This document shows positions 1,814 through 6,607 of a stretch of DNA of 64,000 bases, in pieces. The position numbers and the translations under genes are program-made. The stretch's first letter is position 1; each line of letters begins with the position of its first letter. The notes beneath the pieces are model-generated. The model ran no database searches and was not told the origin of the DNA. It saw only the letters and a list, made by a program, of their open reading frames with translations. This DNA is from Dehalococcoidia bacterium (GTDB lineage: Bacteria; Chloroflexota; Dehalococcoidia; DSTF01; JACRBR01): positions 34,357 through 98,356 of the forward strand of contig JAKFYB010000005.1 of the NCBI GenBank assembly GCA_021731085.1, read 5' to 3'.

Positions 1814-3163
1814 ATGCCGCCACCCATCGTCCAGTACGTCACCACGAGCGACGGTGTCCGTGTTGCCTACACGGTCTGCGGCACGGGCCCGCCGGCCATC
1901 GTGCTGACGGACCCCAGCGTCAGCCATGTCGAACTTGAGTGGTCGCAGCCAATCCTTCGCGATATCTATGGCCGCCTGGCGCAGGACCTCACGCTGATCC
2001 GGATCGACATCCGCGGGACTGGCCTGTCGGATCGCGTCCAGTCCGTTGGCCCTGACACGATCTACGGCGAGATTCGCGCCGTCGTCGAGAAGCTCGGCTT
2101 GCAGCGCTACATCATCGGCGCGGTCCAGATCGTCTCGCCAGCGGCCATCATCTATGCGTCGCGATACCCAAACGAAGTGACGCATCTCGTCCTCATCGAT
2201 GGCTGCCTGAGTGTGATGCAGCTCTTCACCAGCCCGCAGATCGCCGCCGTCATCGCCGCTGGCCAGGCCGACTGGGTGACGGGTACCGAGGCAATCGGTT
2301 CATTCACGTTCGGCGCGGGCCATGCGGAATCCGTCGGCTACGGCACGTACATCCGGTCGTGCATCGACCAGACGTTCTTTCCGCTGGCGATGCAGGCGAG
2401 CCACGTTCACGACTCAACTCCCGTCGCGAAAGACGTGCGCGCTCCCACCCTGATCGTCAAGCACGCCGGCAACACGATCCCGATGGATGTCGCGCGCAAC
2501 GTTGCGACCAATATCCCAAACGCGAGCCTCGTCACGACGCCCGGGCTCTGGGCAGACGAACCCGTCGCCCTCGCCGAGCGTATGCTCGACTGGCTCGCGA
2601 CGACGCTCGCTGCTGAGGAAATGGAGCCCGCTCCATCTGCAAGCGACGCATCTCCGGCACAAACCGGCGTGCGTACCATCCTCTTCACCGACATCGAAGG
2701 TCACACGCAGATGATGCAACGCCTCGGCGATGATGCTGGACGCTCGCTCCTGCGAGAGCACGAGCGCATCACGCGCGATGTTATCGCGAAGCATGGAGGC
2801 GACGAGATAAAGACGATCGGCGACGCGTTCATGGTGTCGTTTGGCTCTGTGACGGCGGCGGCTCAGTGCGCAATCGACCTGCAGCAGGCGATCACGACAG
2901 AACCCATGACCGAACGCTTGAAGATTCGCATCGGGCTGAACGCAGGGGAACCCATCGCCGAGGAAGGCGACCTGTTCGGGTCGTCGGTCATCATCGCTTC
3001 GCGTATCGTTTCCCAGGCGAACGGAGGCGAGATCCTCGTCTCCGATGTCGTCCGCGGACTGCTTTCCGGCAAGCCGTTCATGTTCGCCGACCGTGGCGAC
3101 GTAGCACTGCGCGGGTTCGAGGACCCCATCCGCCTCTACGAACTCCGCTGGCAGCCAGCCTAG
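1814..3163 (+). CDS. alpha/beta-hydrolase-fold plus class III adenylate/guanylate cyclase fusion (Rv1900c/LipJ-like architecture)
   Basis: C-terminal TILFTDIEGHT, IKTIGDAFM, RIGLNAGE, DLFGSSVIIASRI motifs. Confidence 0.9.
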   Translation: MPPPIVQYVTTSDGVRVAYTVCGTGPPAIVLTDPSVSHVELEWSQPILRDIYGRLAQDLTLIRIDIRGTGLSDRVQSVGPDTIYGEIRAVVEKLGLQRYIIGAVQIVSPAAIIYASRYPNEVTHLVLIDGCLSVMQLFTSPQIAAVIAAGQADWVTGTEAIGSFTFGAGHAESVGYGTYIRSCIDQTFFPLAMQASHVHDSTPVAKDVRAPTLIVKHAGNTIPMDVARNVATNIPNASLVTTPGLWADEPVALAERMLDWLATTLAAEEMEPAPSASDASPAQTGVRTILFTDIEGHTQMMQRLGDDAGRSLLREHERITRDVIAKHGGDEIKTIGDAFMVSFGSVTAAAQCAIDLQQAITTEPMTERLKIRIGLNAGEPIAEEGDLFGSSVIIASRIVSQANGGEILVSDVVRGLLSGKPFMFADRGDVALRGFEDPIRLYELRWQPA

Positions 3164-3225
3164 CGCCGCCTCTATTGCTGTCACACGTCACCCTTTCGGG
3201 CCGTCGGCTGTAACCTGTAACCACC

Positions 3226-3873
3226 ATGGATCTGCGGCTTTTTCCGCTGAACACCGTCCTCTTCCCGAACATGCGGCTGCCGCTGCATATCTTCGAAGAG
3301 CGCTACAAGGTCATGATCCGCGAATGCATCGAGGAGGATGCGCCGTTCGGCGTGATCCTCGTGAAGTCGGGCGATGAGGTCGGCGACACGCCGGTGCCCT
3401 ACGAGGTGGGCACGACGGCCCGCATCATCCAGGTTGAGTACCTCGACGACGGGCGCATGAACATCTTCAGCATGGGCCACGAGCGCTTCCGCACGATCGC
3501 GATCACGACGACCGAGCCGTACCTGCACGCCGAAGTGACACTGCTCGAACAGCTGCCCGTCGGCGAAGCGGGATGGTCGGTCATGCCGCGCGCACGGCAG
3601 ATGTTCGACGACTACTTCAAGACGTACTTCTCGATCGCCGACCAGTGGGTGCGGGAGGTCTATCTGCCGCCGGACCCCGCTGATGCCGCCGACTACATCG
3701 CCGCACGCTGCGATGTACCACCCGAGGCCAAGCAGAAGTGGCTCGAGGAACTCGATCCGGAGGCGCGACTGCGGATGGAGCTGGAACTGATCAGCGAGGC
3801 GCTGCCGGAGATGCACGGCCGCCTCGTCGCGCACCTGCGCCAGAAGACGACGGGTTTCGGAGTGATGAACTGA
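3226..3873 (+). CDS. Stand-alone Lon N-terminal substrate-binding domain protein
   Basis: LFPLNTVLFP...LPLHIFEERY...VGTTARI. Confidence 0.9.
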   Translation: MDLRLFPLNTVLFPNMRLPLHIFEERYKVMIRECIEEDAPFGVILVKSGDEVGDTPVPYEVGTTARIIQVEYLDDGRMNIFSMGHERFRTIAITTTEPYLHAEVTLLEQLPVGEAGWSVMPRARQMFDDYFKTYFSIADQWVREVYLPPDPADAADYIAARCDVPPEAKQKWLEELDPEARLRMELELISEALPEMHGRLVAHLRQKTTGFGVMN

Positions 3874-3937
3874 GCTCGTCTCTCCACGAACGGCCACGAA
3901 TACGGCGAAGGATTCGAGGAAGCTGTCGGCCCAGAGC

Positions 3938-4046
3938 ATTTCGTTTCGCACTTCTGCCGTATTGAAGCTATTTCGTTTCGCACTATCGCCGTCTTGTGGG
4001 CATTTCGTTTCGCACTTTTCAACCTTCCCGGACTTCTATTCGCACT
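3938..4046 (-). repeat. Mini array of a 15-bp repeat (AGTGCGAAACGAAAT on minus strand): three perfect copies plus one 12/15 copy
   Basis: ATTTCGTTTCGCACT at 3938, 3970 and 4002 (32-bp period); ACTTCTATTCGCACT at 4032-4046 overlapping the stop codon of the adjacent ORF. Confidence 0.9.
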
Positions 4047-4573
4047 TATTCGTCGACGTCAGCACTGCTGAGACTTACATCCAGGCGTGCGAGGGGGGCG
4101 TGGCGGCCCGAGCGGCGATCCTGAAGGGCCTGCAGTTCGTGCAATGTCTGGGTGAGCTGCCTGTTGAGGTGTGCTTCGTATCGCATGATGGGGCGAAGGG
4201 CCGTGGGCGCAGGCAAGGTAAGGGGCAGATTCTCAGGTGGTTCGGCCGCAGCGCGCCAAGGGTCGAGCATACTGGGCTTGCGTCGCACGGCCTCGTATTC
4301 CGTCGGGCGCTCGAGGCGGTCGTACACGGCGTCATGCTCGGCCCGGGCGACACGGCGAAGCCGCCAAAGAATTTCTGCGATCCGGTGGGCGAACGCCTCT
4401 TCGAGCGTGCCTAGCGGTTCGAGGGCGTCTGCGGTCGCGGACGCGAAAGCCGCCCAATCCTCCTGAACCTCATCGGGCAGGACGATTTCCTGCGCGCTGA
4501 GGCCGTGGCGAAGACTATTTCGTGCGGCGATTGCTTTGCCTGCGGGTGTCGTGGGTCCGGTCTGGTCGGGCAT
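4046..4573 (-). CDS. Uncharacterised helical protein with TGPxTxxGK...NxxxHGL N-terminal motif
   Basis: AGGAGG RBS; MPDQTGPTTPAGKAIAARNSLRHGL...LWRLRR...RYEAHLNRQL. Confidence 0.8.
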   Translation of the reverse strand: MPDQTGPTTPAGKAIAARNSLRHGLSAQEIVLPDEVQEDWAAFASATADALEPLGTLEEAFAHRIAEILWRLRRVARAEHDAVYDRLERPTEYEAVRRKPSMLDPWRAAAEPPENLPLTLPAPTALRPIMRYEAHLNRQLTQTLHELQALQDRRSGRHAPLARLDVSLSSADVDE

Positions 4574-4712
4574 GGGTCACCTCCTGGTTAGGAATTCCCA
4601 TACAACGGCTCGAAACGCCAAGGGCGCGATGGCACTTCAGTCGTCTTGCTGCTCATAAGGCATAGCCGCCGTATCATGCAGCCCCAAACGCAATGGAAAG
4701 GACACGAGACCA

Positions 4713-5729
4713 ATGGCACTGGAAATGCGGCCCTTCGGCCGAACGGGCGTGAAAGTATCGAGCATCTGCCTGGGGGCGATGATGTTCGGGGCGAAGACGA
4801 ACCTTGAGGACTCCTGCGCGATCGTCGATAAGGCGCTCGACTCCGGCATCAACTTCATCGACACCGCGAACGTGTACTCGCGCGGCCGCAGCGAAGAGGC
4901 CGTCGGCGAGGCGCTGGCCCGCAACGGCAAGCGCAACCGGACCTTCCTGGCTACGAAGGTGCATGGCGCGATGGACGACGACGACCCGAACATGCAGGGC
5001 ACGTCGCGCCGCCACATCATCCAGCAATGCGATGAGTCACTGCGCCGCCTGAAGACGGACTGGATCGACCTCTACCAGATCCACCGCCCGCGCTCCGACA
5101 CGGCGATCGACGAGACACTCCGGGCGCTCGATGACCTGATCCGCGCCGGCAAGGTGCGGTACATCGGGAGCAGCACGTACGCCGCGTACCAGCTCGTGGA
5201 ATCGATCTTCATCGCGAAGGAGCTGGGCACCCACCGCTACGTCTGCGAGCAGCCGCCGTACAACCTGCTCGACCGCCGCATCGAGCGCGAACTGTTGCCG
5301 ATGGCGCAGAGCTACGGCATGGCGATTATTCCGTGGTCGCCCTTGGCGGGTGGACTGCTGACGGGCAAGTACCAGCGGGGCGACGAGCCTCCGGAGGGGT
5401 CACGCTTCGCTGACCAGACTAACCCGCTGTACCGCCGCCGCTTGAACGACCGCATCTATGATGTTGTCGAGGGCTTGCAGCCGATGGCCGAAGCAAAGGG
5501 CGTCACGCTATCGCAACTGGCGCTCGGCTGGGTACACCAACAGACGGGCGTCACATCGCCGATCATCGGGCCGCGGGCGATGGAGCAGTTCGACGACAAC
5601 ATGAAGGCGGTCGAGGTCTCGTTCGAGGACGATGAGCTGCGCCAGGTCAACCGCGTTATTCGCCGCGGAGAAAGCGTCGCGCCGTTCTATGAGGCGGACT
5701 TCGGCCCCGCGCAGTACGCGCGGCGATAG
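4713..5729 (+). CDS. Aldo/keto reductase
   Basis: GINFIDTANVY, LATK, IDLYQIH, PWSPLAGGLLTGKY. Confidence 0.95.
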   Translation: MALEMRPFGRTGVKVSSICLGAMMFGAKTNLEDSCAIVDKALDSGINFIDTANVYSRGRSEEAVGEALARNGKRNRTFLATKVHGAMDDDDPNMQGTSRRHIIQQCDESLRRLKTDWIDLYQIHRPRSDTAIDETLRALDDLIRAGKVRYIGSSTYAAYQLVESIFIAKELGTHRYVCEQPPYNLLDRRIERELLPMAQSYGMAIIPWSPLAGGLLTGKYQRGDEPPEGSRFADQTNPLYRRRLNDRIYDVVEGLQPMAEAKGVTLSQLALGWVHQQTGVTSPIIGPRAMEQFDDNMKAVEVSFEDDELRQVNRVIRRGESVAPFYEADFGPAQYARR

Positions 5730-5777: not shown

Positions 5778-6230
5778 TTAGGTGGACTCGTATTCGCCAA
5801 GCCAGCGTGCGTTTGGAAACGCGTCCCCGATGGCGCGCAACAAGCGCTGGTCGTCGGTCCAGAAATTAGCCCCGAGCCGGACAGCGAGCGCGAGATACAT
5901 TGCGTCGTAGAGGCTCGCCAAGCCGTGCTGCGCGGCGAGTTCGAAGGCGGCTCTTGGAAGTTCCGGAACGAAGACAACCGGGAACTCCATCGCGAGGAAA
6001 CTTGCAAGCGCAGCCTCAGCTCGTGCGAGGGAAACATTCTGACGGCGGACCTGCTGGTACGCAGCGTTAGCAACCTCGCTATGAAAGTGAGGTGGAACGC
6101 TCACCCTCACACCACCACGGCGAAGTTCAGTAACGAGAGACAGCGCGCGATCAGAATAGGGTTCATCGATAACAAGCTTGACGGCGACGCTCGCGTCCAA
6201 AACGGTCGCACGATCCGGGTCGGCTGCCAC
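5778..6230 (-). CDS. vapC: VapC-family PIN-domain toxin
   Basis: VLDASVAVK, SEVANA, SLYDAMYLALA, WTDDQRL; translationally coupled to the upstream gene. Confidence 0.9.
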   Translation of the reverse strand: MAADPDRATVLDASVAVKLVIDEPYSDRALSLVTELRRGGVRVSVPPHFHSEVANAAYQQVRRQNVSLARAEAALASFLAMEFPVVFVPELPRAAFELAAQHGLASLYDAMYLALAVRLGANFWTDDQRLLRAIGDAFPNARWLGEYEST

Positions 6231-6607
6231 TATCGCTTGTCACGCCATTCGCGAATGATGTCGGTCGAGGATGGGACGAGCTTTCCGCCACGTTCCTTTC
6301 GCATCTCCGCGCGATTTTCTCCTGCGGCCTTCAGTGCGGCGTCGAGCCGGTGGCCTTCTTCTTCGGTCATGGGGCGTAACGATCGGCGGATTGCCTCCCA
6401 CGGATCCGTGCTTGCAAACGCGAAGGCAGGATGTGCTCCCGCCTCATCCACATCTCGCTTCCTCAGTCGAATGATCTTGGGGCCGATGCGTTGTGCCGGA
6501 ATCCGCCCGGCGCTGATCCAGCGCCAGATGGTCGAGGGGCTGACGCCAAGCTCGGCGGCTGCTTCCTTCACGGTCATGTAGTCGCGATGCGCGCTCGTCA
6601 TGGTCAT
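6230..6607 (-). CDS. Putative antitoxin with excisionase-like (HTH_17/BldC-type) DNA-binding domain
   Basis: YMTVKEAAAELGVSPSTIWRWISAGRIPAQRIG; C-terminus SSTDIIREWRD resembles VapB tails. Confidence 0.8.
   Translation of the reverse strand: MTMTSAHRDYMTVKEAAAELGVSPSTIWRWISAGRIPAQRIGPKIIRLRKRDVDEAGAHPAFAFASTDPWEAIRRSLRPMTEEEGHRLDAALKAAGENRAEMRKERGGKLVPSSTDIIREWRDKR

What the first reader, a model, noticed from the sequence alone, without database searches (positions are those of the whole stretch)
3938..4573. Uncharacterised gene followed directly by a mini repeat-spacer array: candidate new protein + small-RNA (or protein + iteron) system
Seen: a 175-aa ORF of unknown function (TGPTTPAGK...NSLRHGL...LWRLRR...RYE) whose stop codon overlaps the first of four AGTGCGAAACGAAAT repeats. 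Three are perfect with an exact 32-bp period. The spacers are distinct, 15/17/17 nt (CCGGGAAGGTTGAAA, GCCCACAAGACGGCGAT, AGCTTCAATACGGCAGA). The two 17-nt spacers share an inner CAAnACGGC, giving repeat-variable-core-variable units loosely reminiscent of TIGR-type tandem guides, but with no Cas or Nop-domain gene. The cassette lies on the opposite strand between two ordinary genes. Unverified recollection: hypothetical proteins with this N-terminal motif often end in 'RNE' peptides, which is what this repeat encodes, so gene and repeat may travel together. Inference: an undescribed selfish or RNA-associated element, or a protein that binds its own phased repeats (32 bp is about three helical turns).
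Basis: partly seen in the sequence, partly recalled or inferred. Interest (0 to 1): 0.8.

Follow-up and report, generated by a model that had tools for sequence, protein, structure and literature searches.

The report
Small gene with spreading DNA tag
A small uncharacterised protein gene found in many bacterial phyla often carries the same roughly 16-base DNA box just behind its stop codon, and in this bacterium's lineage that box has multiplied in tandem and across the genome, which points to an undescribed protein-plus-repeat system.

Summary
A 175-aa ORF (4046-4573, minus strand) is followed by three perfect AGTGCGAAACGAAAT copies at an exact 32-bp period. A fourth, degenerate copy touches the stop codon.

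The array is not a CRISPR- or TIGR-like guide array. It is a local tandem amplification of a conserved box (AAAsTGCsrAACGAA) that belongs to the gene. Among 101 non-redundant homologue loci, 37 have the box in sense starting within -3..+10 nt of the stop; control windows give 0-2. These loci are Chloroflexota, Rubrobacteraceae and Armatimonadota.

In Planctomycetota and Verrucomicrobiota the same core lies behind the gene but inverted, which favours a DNA-level site over a 3'-UTR RNA.

The protein is all-helical and Arg-rich, with no hit in Pfam, NCBIfam, PHROGs, PADLOC or PDB. The family is very large: 30,298 cluster representatives.

In the window's family of Dehalococcoidia the box has spread to 16-104 intergenic copies per genome. 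Each genome has its own variant, which matches the variant next to its gene. Relatives without the gene have 0-2 copies.

Best reading: a sequence-specific nucleic-acid-binding protein with its cognate box, behaving like a REP/RAYT pair but with an unrelated protein and a non-palindromic repeat. Binding and the copying mechanism are inferred, not shown.

The parts
4046..4573 (-). CDS of 175 aa (stop TAA at 4046-4048). It belongs to a very large uncharacterised all-helical family. Conserved blocks: RGPxTPxGKA..NxLRHGL, WRLRRV..AE, RYEAHLNRQL..LHELEALQ.RR.G..PLARLDV.
   Evidence: ORF. Homologues. Alignment A1. AlphaFold2 model, pLDDT 80.1, five helices. No family or structure match.
4579..4584 (-). 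Shine-Dalgarno AGGAGG, 5 nt before the ATG
   Evidence: Read from the sequence.
4574..4712 (-). 5' intergenic region of the cassette (139 bp, GC 0.56). The promoter is not identified.
   Evidence: Composition. No sigma-70-like site found.
4032..4046 (-). Box copy 1, degenerate (AGTGCGAATAGAAGT, 3 mismatches). It shares one base with the stop codon.
4002..4018 (-). Box copy 2, perfect (AAAGTGCGAAACGAAAT with its leading A's)
3970..3984 (-). Box copy 3, perfect
3938..3952 (-). Box copy 4, perfect. It is the last unit, 65 nt from the stop of the convergent LON-domain gene.
3938..4048 (-). The whole four-unit array: a tandem amplification of the gene's 3' box. As RNA it is unstructured.
   Evidence: TRF. 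The fold is weaker than shuffles, z = +1.30. No Rfam match.

Best explanation
The cassette is one copy of a widespread two-part unit. One part is a small Arg-rich helical protein. The other is a box of about 16-27 nt (AAAsTGCsrAACGAA, often extended to AACACnAAAA...CTCC) placed directly behind the protein's stop codon. I read the box as the protein's cognate recognition site, most likely on DNA. The four units here are a local tandem amplification of that box.

In this Dehalococcoidia family the box has also been copied to tens to about a hundred other intergenic places. The pair therefore behaves like a REP/RAYT pair: a dedicated protein plus its own dispersed repeat. The protein is unrelated to RAYT and the repeat is non-palindromic.

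Shown:
- The gene-box linkage and its conservation across phyla.
- Genome-specific box variants that match the copy next to the gene.
- Few or no box copies in relatives without the gene.
- Tandem-duplication structure of the arrays.
- No conservation of the two solo sites compared with the congener G003.

Inferred:
- That the protein binds the box.
- That binding is to DNA rather than RNA.
- That the protein has a part in copying the box.
- What the bound box does for the gene (autoregulation, insulation or roadblock, or a cis site for mobilisation).
For: 1. Linkage. Among 101 non-redundant homologue loci, 37 have the box in sense starting at -3..+10 nt of the stop, and 4 more at +11..+30. 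Twelve control windows of equal size give 0-2 each, and the antisense strand gives 1.

2. Breadth. The box follows the gene in Dehalococcoidia, Thermomicrobiales, Rubrobacter/Rubrobacteraceae and Armatimonadota. In genomes G234-G236 (Armatimonadota, Rubrobacteraceae, Thermomicrobia) the only match without a mismatch is the one behind the gene. So the box belongs to the gene and is not a pre-existing host repeat.

3. Box versus coding sequence. In the Rubrobacter-type loci the box is invariant while the C-terminal residues differ.

4. Orientation. Of 23 loci outside those phyla, 7 have the 12-nt core within 110 nt after the stop in antisense. All 7 are Planctomycetota or Verrucomicrobiota. One locus has it in sense. 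In 500 nt of coding sequence per locus the counts are 0 sense and 1 antisense. A site that keeps its sequence but flips strand argues for a DNA-level site.

5. Spread. Box counts against reversed-pattern controls:
- G000: 30 vs 0
- G016: 31 vs 1
- G006: 21 vs 0
- G007: 17 vs 0
- G003: 104 vs 0, for its own variant AAACTGCCGAGCAAT
- G021: 16 vs 0
- G022: 25 vs 0
In G003, G007, G016, G021 and G022 the variant is the same as the one behind that genome's gene copy.

6. Co-occurrence. All 9 relatives with 4 or more copies carry the gene (8 of 8 without the unpublished G024). The 16 relatives with no protein match have 0-2 copies. Two further variant patterns, each tried on two of four of these gene-less genomes, found none.

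7. Core versus spacer. In the window the 15-nt core is perfect in three units while the spacers agree at 9 of 17 positions.

8. Turnover. At two loci syntenic between G000 and its congener G003, the G000 box copies have no clear counterpart in G003.

9. Protein features. The conserved helices are rich in Arg, His and Glu (WRLRRV, RYEAHLNRQL, HELE), and the N-terminal peptide is basic with conserved Gly and Pro. The model is all-helical.
Against: - No binding or activity data exist, and no RNA run was available.
- The protein has no recognisable DNA-binding, nuclease, recombinase or transposase domain.
- 44 to 60 of the 101 loci, depending on the threshold, show no box. One Dehalococcoidia subgroup (C-termini ...LARLDISGPP) lacks it altogether.
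- In G000 the majority variant (CTGCCAAACGAAC, about 24 copies) differs from the variant behind this gene (GTGCGAAACGAAAT, about 6 copies). No gene copy next to the majority variant is in the assembly. The paralogue on contig 17 has no box.
- In most genomes with the gene the box is not amplified. If the protein copies the box, it rarely does so.
- The genomes compared are kin and mostly metagenome-assembled, so the co-occurrence counts overstate independence.
Confidence: 0.45

Rival explanations
1. RNA-level system. The box acts in transcripts as an unstructured A-rich protein-binding site: in the gene's own 3' UTR and in leaders of other genes. The arrays act as multi-site decoys, as in the CsrA/CsrB scheme (recalled).
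For: - The box is in sense in 41 of 101 loci.
- In G000 the nearest downstream ORF is co-oriented at 14 of 21 box loci, and the upstream ORF at 15 of 20. Nine sites lie 4-96 nt before a co-oriented ORF (crude GC3-based gene caller).
- The array RNA is unstructured, z = +1.30.
- The N-terminal peptide is basic.
Against: - The box is inverted relative to the gene in 7 Planctomycetota and Verrucomicrobiota loci.
- Boxes also lie in convergent and divergent intergenic regions.
- Copies are near-identical over about 27 nt and the two sites compared are not conserved in the congener G003. This looks like copy-and-paste rather than evolved regulatory sites.
- No transcript data are available.
Confidence: 0.2
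2. The gene is a site-specific mobile cassette that inserts just upstream of a pre-existing host repeat. The box is its target, not its partner.
For: - The gene is multi-copy and patchy: 25 of 41 relatives, up to 7 matches per genome.
- Many homologues sit on contigs of about 1-3 kb.
- GC3 is 0.70 against 0.87-0.88 in the neighbouring genes.
- The LON-domain and reductase neighbours lie on different contigs in G001-G003, with other genes beside them.
- Two 90%-identical copies occur in G022, one beside a tRNA-Pro gene.
Against: - In G234-G236 the only match without a mismatch is the one behind the gene, and in the Planctomycetota genomes G238 and G239 that copy is the only match, so there was no repeat family to target.
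- Several Rubrobacteraceae loci share the same neighbours, which suggests vertical descent with the box kept.
- No terminal repeats, target duplications or transposase were seen.
- No hit in plasmid, phage or viral-contig collections.
Confidence: 0.12
3. No protein-box partnership. The box is an ordinary cis element of the mRNA or gene end, such as a termination or stability signal. The array is a neutral minisatellite.
For: - Arrays in G003 are near-identical tandem duplicates of whole 55-nt and 136-nt units.
- The genome carries other short tandem and dispersed repeats.
- No length variation appears among four DNA runs of one study.
Against: - The box is conserved letter for letter across phyla, behind only this gene family.
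- In the window the core is perfect while the spacers have diverged.
- Box variants are genome-specific and co-occur with the gene.
- No terminator-like site was found.
Confidence: 0.1
4. A miniature CRISPR- or TIGR-like guide array whose spacers target other nucleic acids.
For: - The layout is repeat-spacer with distinct 15-17 nt spacers.
- One of many tied structural rows is a TasH complex, Z 8.1.
Against: - No Cas or Nop-domain gene lies in the ORF or within about 4 kb.
- The repeat is shorter than CRISPR repeats.
- Spacers within arrays are copies of each other.
- Most family members have a single box and no spacer.
- The TasH row is tied with designed helical hairpins at Z 8.0-8.4, which is the chance range for helical models according to the tool's own note.
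Confidence: 0.02

Closest known systems
REP elements with their RAYT gene (REPtrons). Seen only as search listing and abstract starts of PMC2817692 and PMC3733652; the rest is recalled.
   Same: - A dedicated protein gene sits physically next to a copy of a short repeat.
- The repeat is also dispersed in tens to hundreds of intergenic copies.
- The repeat sequence is genome-specific.
- The repeat is missing where the gene is missing.
- Clustered arrangements occur.
   Different: - The protein is all-helical and has no Y1/HUH transposase match.
- The repeat is non-palindromic and unstructured.
- The repeat lies on the 3' side of the gene only.
- Most carriers have just one box.
Direct-repeat binding-site arrays next to the gene of the protein that binds them: F-plasmid sopB-sopC, P1 repA-incA iterons (recalled).
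   Same: A protein gene is followed by head-to-tail copies of a short non-palindromic site at a regular period.
   Different: - The context is chromosomal, with no plasmid match.
- The protein is not a ParB or Rep relative.
- Periods differ from array to array.
- The site is also dispersed genome-wide.
Conserved boxes of conserved DNA-binding proteins that lie at or near their own gene: ParB-parS, DnaA boxes, Tus-TerB (recalled).
   Same: The box sequence is conserved across phyla while the protein diverges to 30-45% identity. One copy lies beside the gene.
   Different: - Those are single-copy housekeeping genes with fixed chromosomal roles.
- This family is patchy, multi-copy and poorly codon-adapted.
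- No replication polarity is seen: GC skew is positive at 7 and negative at 14 of 21 loci.
Type III toxin-antitoxin systems such as ToxIN (recalled).
   Same: A protein gene is coupled to a short tandem array of 30-45-nt units.
   Different: - The array follows the gene instead of preceding it.
- There is no ToxN/AbiQ-type match.
- Most homologues have a single box.
- The box can be inverted.
TIGR-Tas tandem guide arrays
   Same: Short tandem units with a conserved and a variable part.
   Different: No Nop-domain protein. The variable parts are duplicates of each other.

Membership tests
CRISPR array | Direct repeats of about 23-50 bp | tested here: not met
   The conserved core is 15 nt here, and at most about 27 nt in dispersed copies.
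CRISPR array | Unique spacers unrelated to each other | tested here: not met
   The spacers here share 9 of 17 positions. Spacers in L010 and in the G003 arrays are identical or near-identical.
CRISPR array | cas genes nearby | tested here: not met
   Pfam on the ORF and seven neighbours between 1778 and 9333 gives cyclase, LON domain, reductase, PIN, HTH_17 and ABC transporter parts.
TIGR-Tas | Adjacent Tas protein with a Nop domain | tested here: not met
   No Nop-domain hit in the ORF or its neighbours. The structural row for TasH at Z 8.1 is tied with unrelated helical hairpins.
REP/RAYT (REPtron) | Repeat is an imperfect palindrome that forms a hairpin | tested here: not met
   The array folds less well than shuffles, z = +1.30. 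The motif is not self-complementary.
REP/RAYT (REPtron) | Associated protein is a Y1 (HUH) transposase relative | tested here: not met
   No Pfam or NCBIfam hit. The model is all-helical. Foldseek finds no match at E <= 0.001.
REP/RAYT (REPtron) | Gene flanked by its own repeat, which is also dispersed and genome-specific | tested here: met
   The box is on the 3' side only: 37 of 101 loci. Dispersed variants match the gene-adjacent variant in G003, G007, G016, G021 and G022.
Type III toxin-antitoxin (ToxIN-like) | Repeat array upstream of a ToxN/AbiQ-type endoribonuclease gene | tested here: not met
   The array is downstream. No PADLOC or Pfam match.
Type III toxin-antitoxin (ToxIN-like) | Repeat RNA is processed into units that inhibit the protein | not testable with these tools
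   No RNA data are available.
Plasmid iteron or centromere arrays | Rep or ParB-type protein on a replicon that needs the site | tested here: not met
   No Rep or ParB family hit. No plasmid record matches. The setting is chromosomal.
Plasmid iteron or centromere arrays | The protein binds the direct repeats | not testable with these tools
   This needs EMSA or footprinting.
Known RNA families (Rfam 15) | Match to a curated covariance model | tested here: not met
   No match at E <= 10 in 3000-5500. Eight other array loci gave only tRNAs and sub-threshold chance rows.

The most novel reading that the evidence does not exclude
The family is a new class of sequence-specific DNA-binding proteins. 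Each carries its cognate box behind its own stop codon and can copy that box, in tandem and to new intergenic sites, without any known transposase, recombinase or reverse-transcriptase fold. That would be a new copy-and-paste mechanism for short repeats, and a function for one of the largest families of 'hypothetical proteins' in bacteria.
Probability: 0.2. Interest if true: 0.9.

Novelty: new variant of a known kind. Interest (0 to 1): 0.7.

Why it matters
- **Size of the unknown.** The family has 30,298 cluster representatives at E <= 0.001. It spans at least Chloroflexota, Actinomycetota, Armatimonadota, Planctomycetota and Verrucomicrobiota. It has no domain annotation in any library searched. 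A conserved, easily synthesised 16-nt box beside the gene turns 'function unknown' into a direct binding experiment.
- **Origin of short repeats.** If the protein also drives the spread of its box, this would be a second, unrelated solution to the problem RAYTs solve for REPs. It would explain some short non-palindromic intergenic repeats and minisatellites in GC-rich genomes.
- **Annotation.** Some database proteins of this family are artificially extended through the box and carry KLPNEL or SRETNP peptides.

Tried and rejected
**Protein family and structure**
- Pfam, NCBIfam, PHROGs and PADLOC gave nothing above threshold.
- A PDB sequence profile search gave 0 hits at E <= 10.
- Foldseek against PDB gave 0 hits at E <= 0.001.
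- VIA-align wide gave a best Z of 8.4, all generic helical hairpins over residues 54-158, within the chance range for helical models.
- In the ESM Atlas, 30 of 30 nearest clusters are 'hypothetical protein' without a Pfam family.
- The search for longer forms found no informative fusion. The one protein with a methyltransferase domain reads through two box copies.
- Homodimer prediction gave no verdict, score 0.02.

**RNA and signals**
- Rfam found nothing.
- The consensus scan found no promoter or terminator.
- The RNA fold is weaker than shuffles.

**23S rRNA mimicry**
- The majority G000 box shares 12 nt (TGCCAAACGAAC) with 23S rRNA at contig 11:20133.
- The rRNA segment does not co-vary with the box variants of G007 and G022, so I treat the identity as chance.

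**Genome-level tests**
- Replication polarity: GC skew on the box strand is positive at 7 and negative at 14 of 21 loci.
- A class-wide scan of 201 genomes was little use for correlation. Apart from G000 (19), only G190 (7) stood out (G114 and G215 had 4 each), and many single hits are probably this 23S rRNA segment (shown only for G000).
- Empty-site test: the LON-domain and reductase genes lie on different contigs in G001-G003, so no clean empty site could be aligned.
- Element boundaries from the G022 paralogues (877 bp, 90% identity) showed no terminal repeats or target duplication.
- No neighbour gene is conserved across 174 loci, except a TubC_N-domain ORF at 8 Rubrobacteraceae loci.
- A possible second upstream motif (AAACAATCAAA) is too rare to count as part of the repeat.

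**Mobile-element collections**
- No match in plasmids, phages or IMG/VR contigs.
- A single Planctomycete query found no loci. An alignment query then did.

**Expression and read data**
- No RNA holder was listed.
- Contigs of four DNA runs of one study, which may be the source sample, show the array unchanged, with no joint that skips the cassette.

**Literature**
- Search on Chloroflexi, intergenic repeats, REP and RAYT: 55 papers, none on this motif among the 15 listed (listing and abstract starts only).
- Six 13-mers of the box searched as text: 0 papers.
- No paper was read in full and no supplement was seen.

**Not tried**
- Matching the 15-17-nt spacers to viral collections. Exact matches of that length are expected by chance.
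Full report
**1. The observation**

The ORF is at 4046..4573 on the minus strand: 175 aa, ATG start. An AGGAGG lies 5 nt upstream.

On the same strand AGTGCGAAACGAAAT occurs exactly at 4002-4016, 3970-3984 and 3938-3952. A copy with three mismatches at 4032-4046 shares one base with the TAA stop. Tandem Repeats Finder reports period 32, 2.5 copies, score 109. The two 17-mers agree at 9 of 17 positions.

The cassette lies between a LON substrate-binding-domain gene (3226-3873, +) and an aldo/keto reductase gene (4713-5729, +). Further neighbours are a cyclase-domain protein, a PIN/HTH_17 pair and ABC-transporter parts. No Cas, Nop or transposase gene is near.

The ORF has GC3 0.70 against 0.87-0.88 in its neighbours. 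The array stands unchanged in contigs of four DNA runs of one study.

**2. The protein**

No library names it:
- Pfam, best E 0.042, below cut-off.
- NCBIfam, PHROGs and PADLOC.
- PDB sequences by profile.

It is nevertheless a real and very large family:
- 310 near-length relatives, all unnamed or 'hypothetical protein', none with a Pfam domain.
- 101 longer forms.
- With a profile of 31 members, 30,298 cluster representatives at E <= 0.001 and 15,271 at E <= 1e-10.

The alignment shows three conserved blocks: RGPxTPxGKA..NxLRHGL at the N-terminus, WRLRRVxRAE, and RYEAHLNRQL..LHELEALQxRRxG..PLARLDV. A variable middle is expanded to give forms of about 300 aa.

The AlphaFold2 model (pLDDT 80.1, pTM 0.66) is all-helical, with helices at 10-24, 37-51, 56-88, 90-98 and 123-154. 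Foldseek finds nothing at E <= 0.001. VIA-align finds only generic helical hairpins, best Z 8.4. All 30 nearest ESM Atlas clusters are unnamed.

**3. Gene and box travel together**

In 40 relatives plus the window's genome, 25 of 41 genomes have the protein. There are up to 7 matches per genome, and none is more than 51% identical to the query.

Reading the DNA behind each stop codon showed the same motif family again and again, for example TGAAAACTGCGAAACAAATCCC and TAAAACTGCCGAACGAACTC. Some loci have 2-7 tandem copies.

I scored a loose 16-nt consensus at 15 of 16 or better on 101 non-redundant loci:

| Scan | Loci with a hit (of 101) |
|---|---|
| Sense, starting at -3..+10 of the stop | 37 |
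| Sense, starting at +11..+30 | 4 |
| Twelve control windows of the same size | 0-2 each |
| Antisense strand at the stop | 1 |

The carriers are Dehalococcoidia, Thermomicrobiales, Rubrobacter/Rubrobacteraceae and Armatimonadota.

In one genome each of Armatimonadota, Rubrobacteraceae and Thermomicrobia, the only match without a mismatch is the one behind the gene. In the Rubrobacter-type loci the box is invariant while the last residues of the protein differ.

The box is therefore part of the gene unit and is under selection. It is not a host repeat next to which the gene happened to land.

**4. Orientation flips in another superphylum**

I ran a second locus search with an alignment of long forms. 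In five Planctomycetota and two Verrucomicrobiota loci the same 12-nt core lies 4-53 nt behind the stop, but on the opposite strand.

| Region scanned (23 loci outside the phyla above) | Sense | Antisense |
|---|---|---|
| 110 nt after the stop | 1 | 7 |
| 500 nt of coding sequence per locus | 0 | 1 |

These genomes hold only 0-4 matches to the pattern.

A site that keeps its letters but changes strand relative to the gene is easier to explain as a DNA site than as part of the gene's 3' UTR.

**5. Spread of the box in the window's lineage**

The window's genome has about 32 copies at 21 loci of a closely related unit, AaACacCAAAACTGCCAAACGAACTCC. The unit is conserved over about 27 nt, with no conservation beyond that. 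Some copies are in tandem, with periods of 41, 42 and 55 bp.

Counts against a reversed-pattern control:

| Genome | Box copies | Control | Note |
|---|---|---|---|
| G000 | 30 | 0 | window's genome |
| G016 | 31 | 1 | |
| G006 | 21 | 0 | |
| G007 | 17 | 0 | |
| G015 | 11 | 1 | |
| G024 | 10 | 0 | unpublished genome; this count rests on it |
| G023 | 7 | 0 | |
| G013 | 5 | 0 | |
| G002 | 4 | 0 | |
| G003 | 104 | 0 | own variant AAACTGCCGAGCAAT; same genus as G000 |
| G021 | 16 | 0 | own variant |
| G022 | 25 | 0 | own variant |

In G003, G007, G016, G021 and G022 the variant is the one that follows that genome's gene copy.

All 9 relatives with 4 or more copies carry the gene (8 of 8 without G024). 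The 16 relatives without a protein match have 0-2 copies. Two further variant patterns, each tried on two of four of these gene-less genomes, found none. These genomes are kin and mostly metagenome-assembled, so the counts are not independent.

Across 201 genomes of the class, expansion is rare: G000 has 19 and G190 has 7.

**6. What the arrays and solo copies are**

Arrays in G003 are near-identical tandem duplicates of whole units of 55 nt (8 units) or about 136 nt (4 units). In L010 two spacers are identical. The arrays are minisatellite-like, not spacer-acquiring.

In the window the core is perfect and the spacers are half diverged. This points to an older duplication with the core kept.

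Periods differ between arrays: about 30, 36-38, 41-42, 52-56, 63 and 135-137 bp. The three-helical-turn idea is therefore not general.

At two loci syntenic between G000 and G003, the G000 copies have no clear counterpart in G003. So solo copies turn over between congeners.

With a crude GC3-based gene caller, 18 of 21 box loci fall outside called ORFs. The downstream ORF is co-oriented at 14 of 21 loci and the upstream ORF at 15 of 20. Copies occur in tandem, convergent and divergent intergenic regions. There is no GC-skew polarity: 7 positive against 14 negative.

**7. Mobility of the gene**

The LON-domain and reductase genes lie on different contigs in the three congeners, with other genes beside them. 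The cassette thus sits at a variable spot, but no clean empty site could be aligned.

Two G022 copies share 877 bp at 90% identity, from about 150 nt upstream of the CDS to 122 nt behind the stop. They show no terminal repeats or target duplications, and one lies beside a tRNA-Pro gene.

No conserved partner gene exists across 174 loci, except a TubC_N-domain ORF in 8 Rubrobacteraceae loci. No plasmid, phage or viral-contig record holds a relative.

**8. Reading**

Shown:
- A conserved gene-plus-box unit across at least five phyla.
- Lineage-specific amplification of the box, in tandem and dispersed, with genome-specific variants tied to the gene.

Inferred:
- The protein recognises the box, probably as DNA.
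- The four units here are a tandem amplification of its site.
- The protein may have a part in copying the box.

The closest working analogy is the REP/RAYT pair. Membership fails on the two defining features tested, the hairpin repeat and the Y1 transposase. Iteron or centromere arrays behind sopB or repA share the anatomy but not the protein or the replicon (recalled). The CRISPR/TIGR reading fails on repeat length, spacer nature and partner genes.

An RNA-level reading (binding sites in transcripts, arrays as decoys) remains possible for the Terrabacteria, where the box is always in sense. The inverted box elsewhere weakens it.

**9. Limits**

- There are no expression or binding data.
- The consensus I scored is my own.
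- The gene caller is crude.
- Many genomes are incomplete MAGs.
- In G000 the majority box variant has no linked gene in the assembly, and the contig-17 paralogue has no box.
- For literature I saw only a search listing with abstract starts and a blank text search for the box strings. I read no paper in full and saw no supplements.
- What I say about REP/RAYT beyond those abstracts is recalled. So is what I say about ToxIN, sopC, incA, ParB-parS, DnaA boxes, Tus-Ter, CsrA/CsrB and TIGR-Tas.
It appears to be the same phenomenon found on other DNA. I reached my reading before seeing it, and I do not count it as independent support.

Noticed in passing
G000 contig 11:20133-20146 (about 14 kb upstream of the window; locus L140): The majority box of this genome shares 12 consecutive letters (TGCCAAACGAAC) with a single-stranded-looking stretch of 23S rRNA (Rfam LSU model positions 730-930). 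The rRNA stretch does not co-vary with the box variants of G007 and G022, so this is probably chance.
   Followed up: yes
window 5778-6607 (minus strand): A PIN-domain protein (150 aa) and an HTH_17 protein (125 aa) with overlapping stop and start. This is a VapBC-like toxin-antitoxin pair directly after the reductase gene.
   Followed up: partly
L008 (G000 contig 17:8776-11991), 1273-2280: The genome's second family member is a 335-aa long form. It is followed not by the box but by several GC-rich REP-like hairpins (GGGGCCGGGGGTGAGG type). A Pro/Thr-repeat protein lies upstream.
   Followed up: partly
L040, L044, L046, L062, L070, L071, L076, L086, L113, L115 (downstream of homologues without the box): Homologues of the '...LARLDISGPP' subgroup are followed by short microsatellite-like runs with 6-10-nt periods (GGTTCC, CCTCCTA and CCCTCGA types) instead of the box.
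   Followed up: no
P0253, P0338 (database proteins): Predicted proteins that run through the stop region into box copies carry repeated KLPNEL or SRETNP peptides.
   Followed up: partly
L100 404-745 and 8 Rubrobacteraceae loci: In Rubrobacteraceae the family gene is preceded by a conserved ORF with a TubC_N docking domain (E 1.6e-12) and followed by a convergent Cys-rich 209-aa ORF with no family match. This could be an integrated element.
   Followed up: partly
L015 1160-1237 (G022 contig 9): One of two 90%-identical gene copies lies about 60 nt downstream of a tRNA-Pro(CGG) gene. The shared block begins in a run of AATCTGCG-like repeats.
   Followed up: partly
G000 contigs 3, 10 and 23 (around 3:91981, 10:18596, 23:236): Several solo boxes are preceded, 30-45 nt upstream, by G-poor, A/C-rich tracts that contain AAACAATCAAA. 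This is too rare (4 exact copies) to call a second module.
   Followed up: partly
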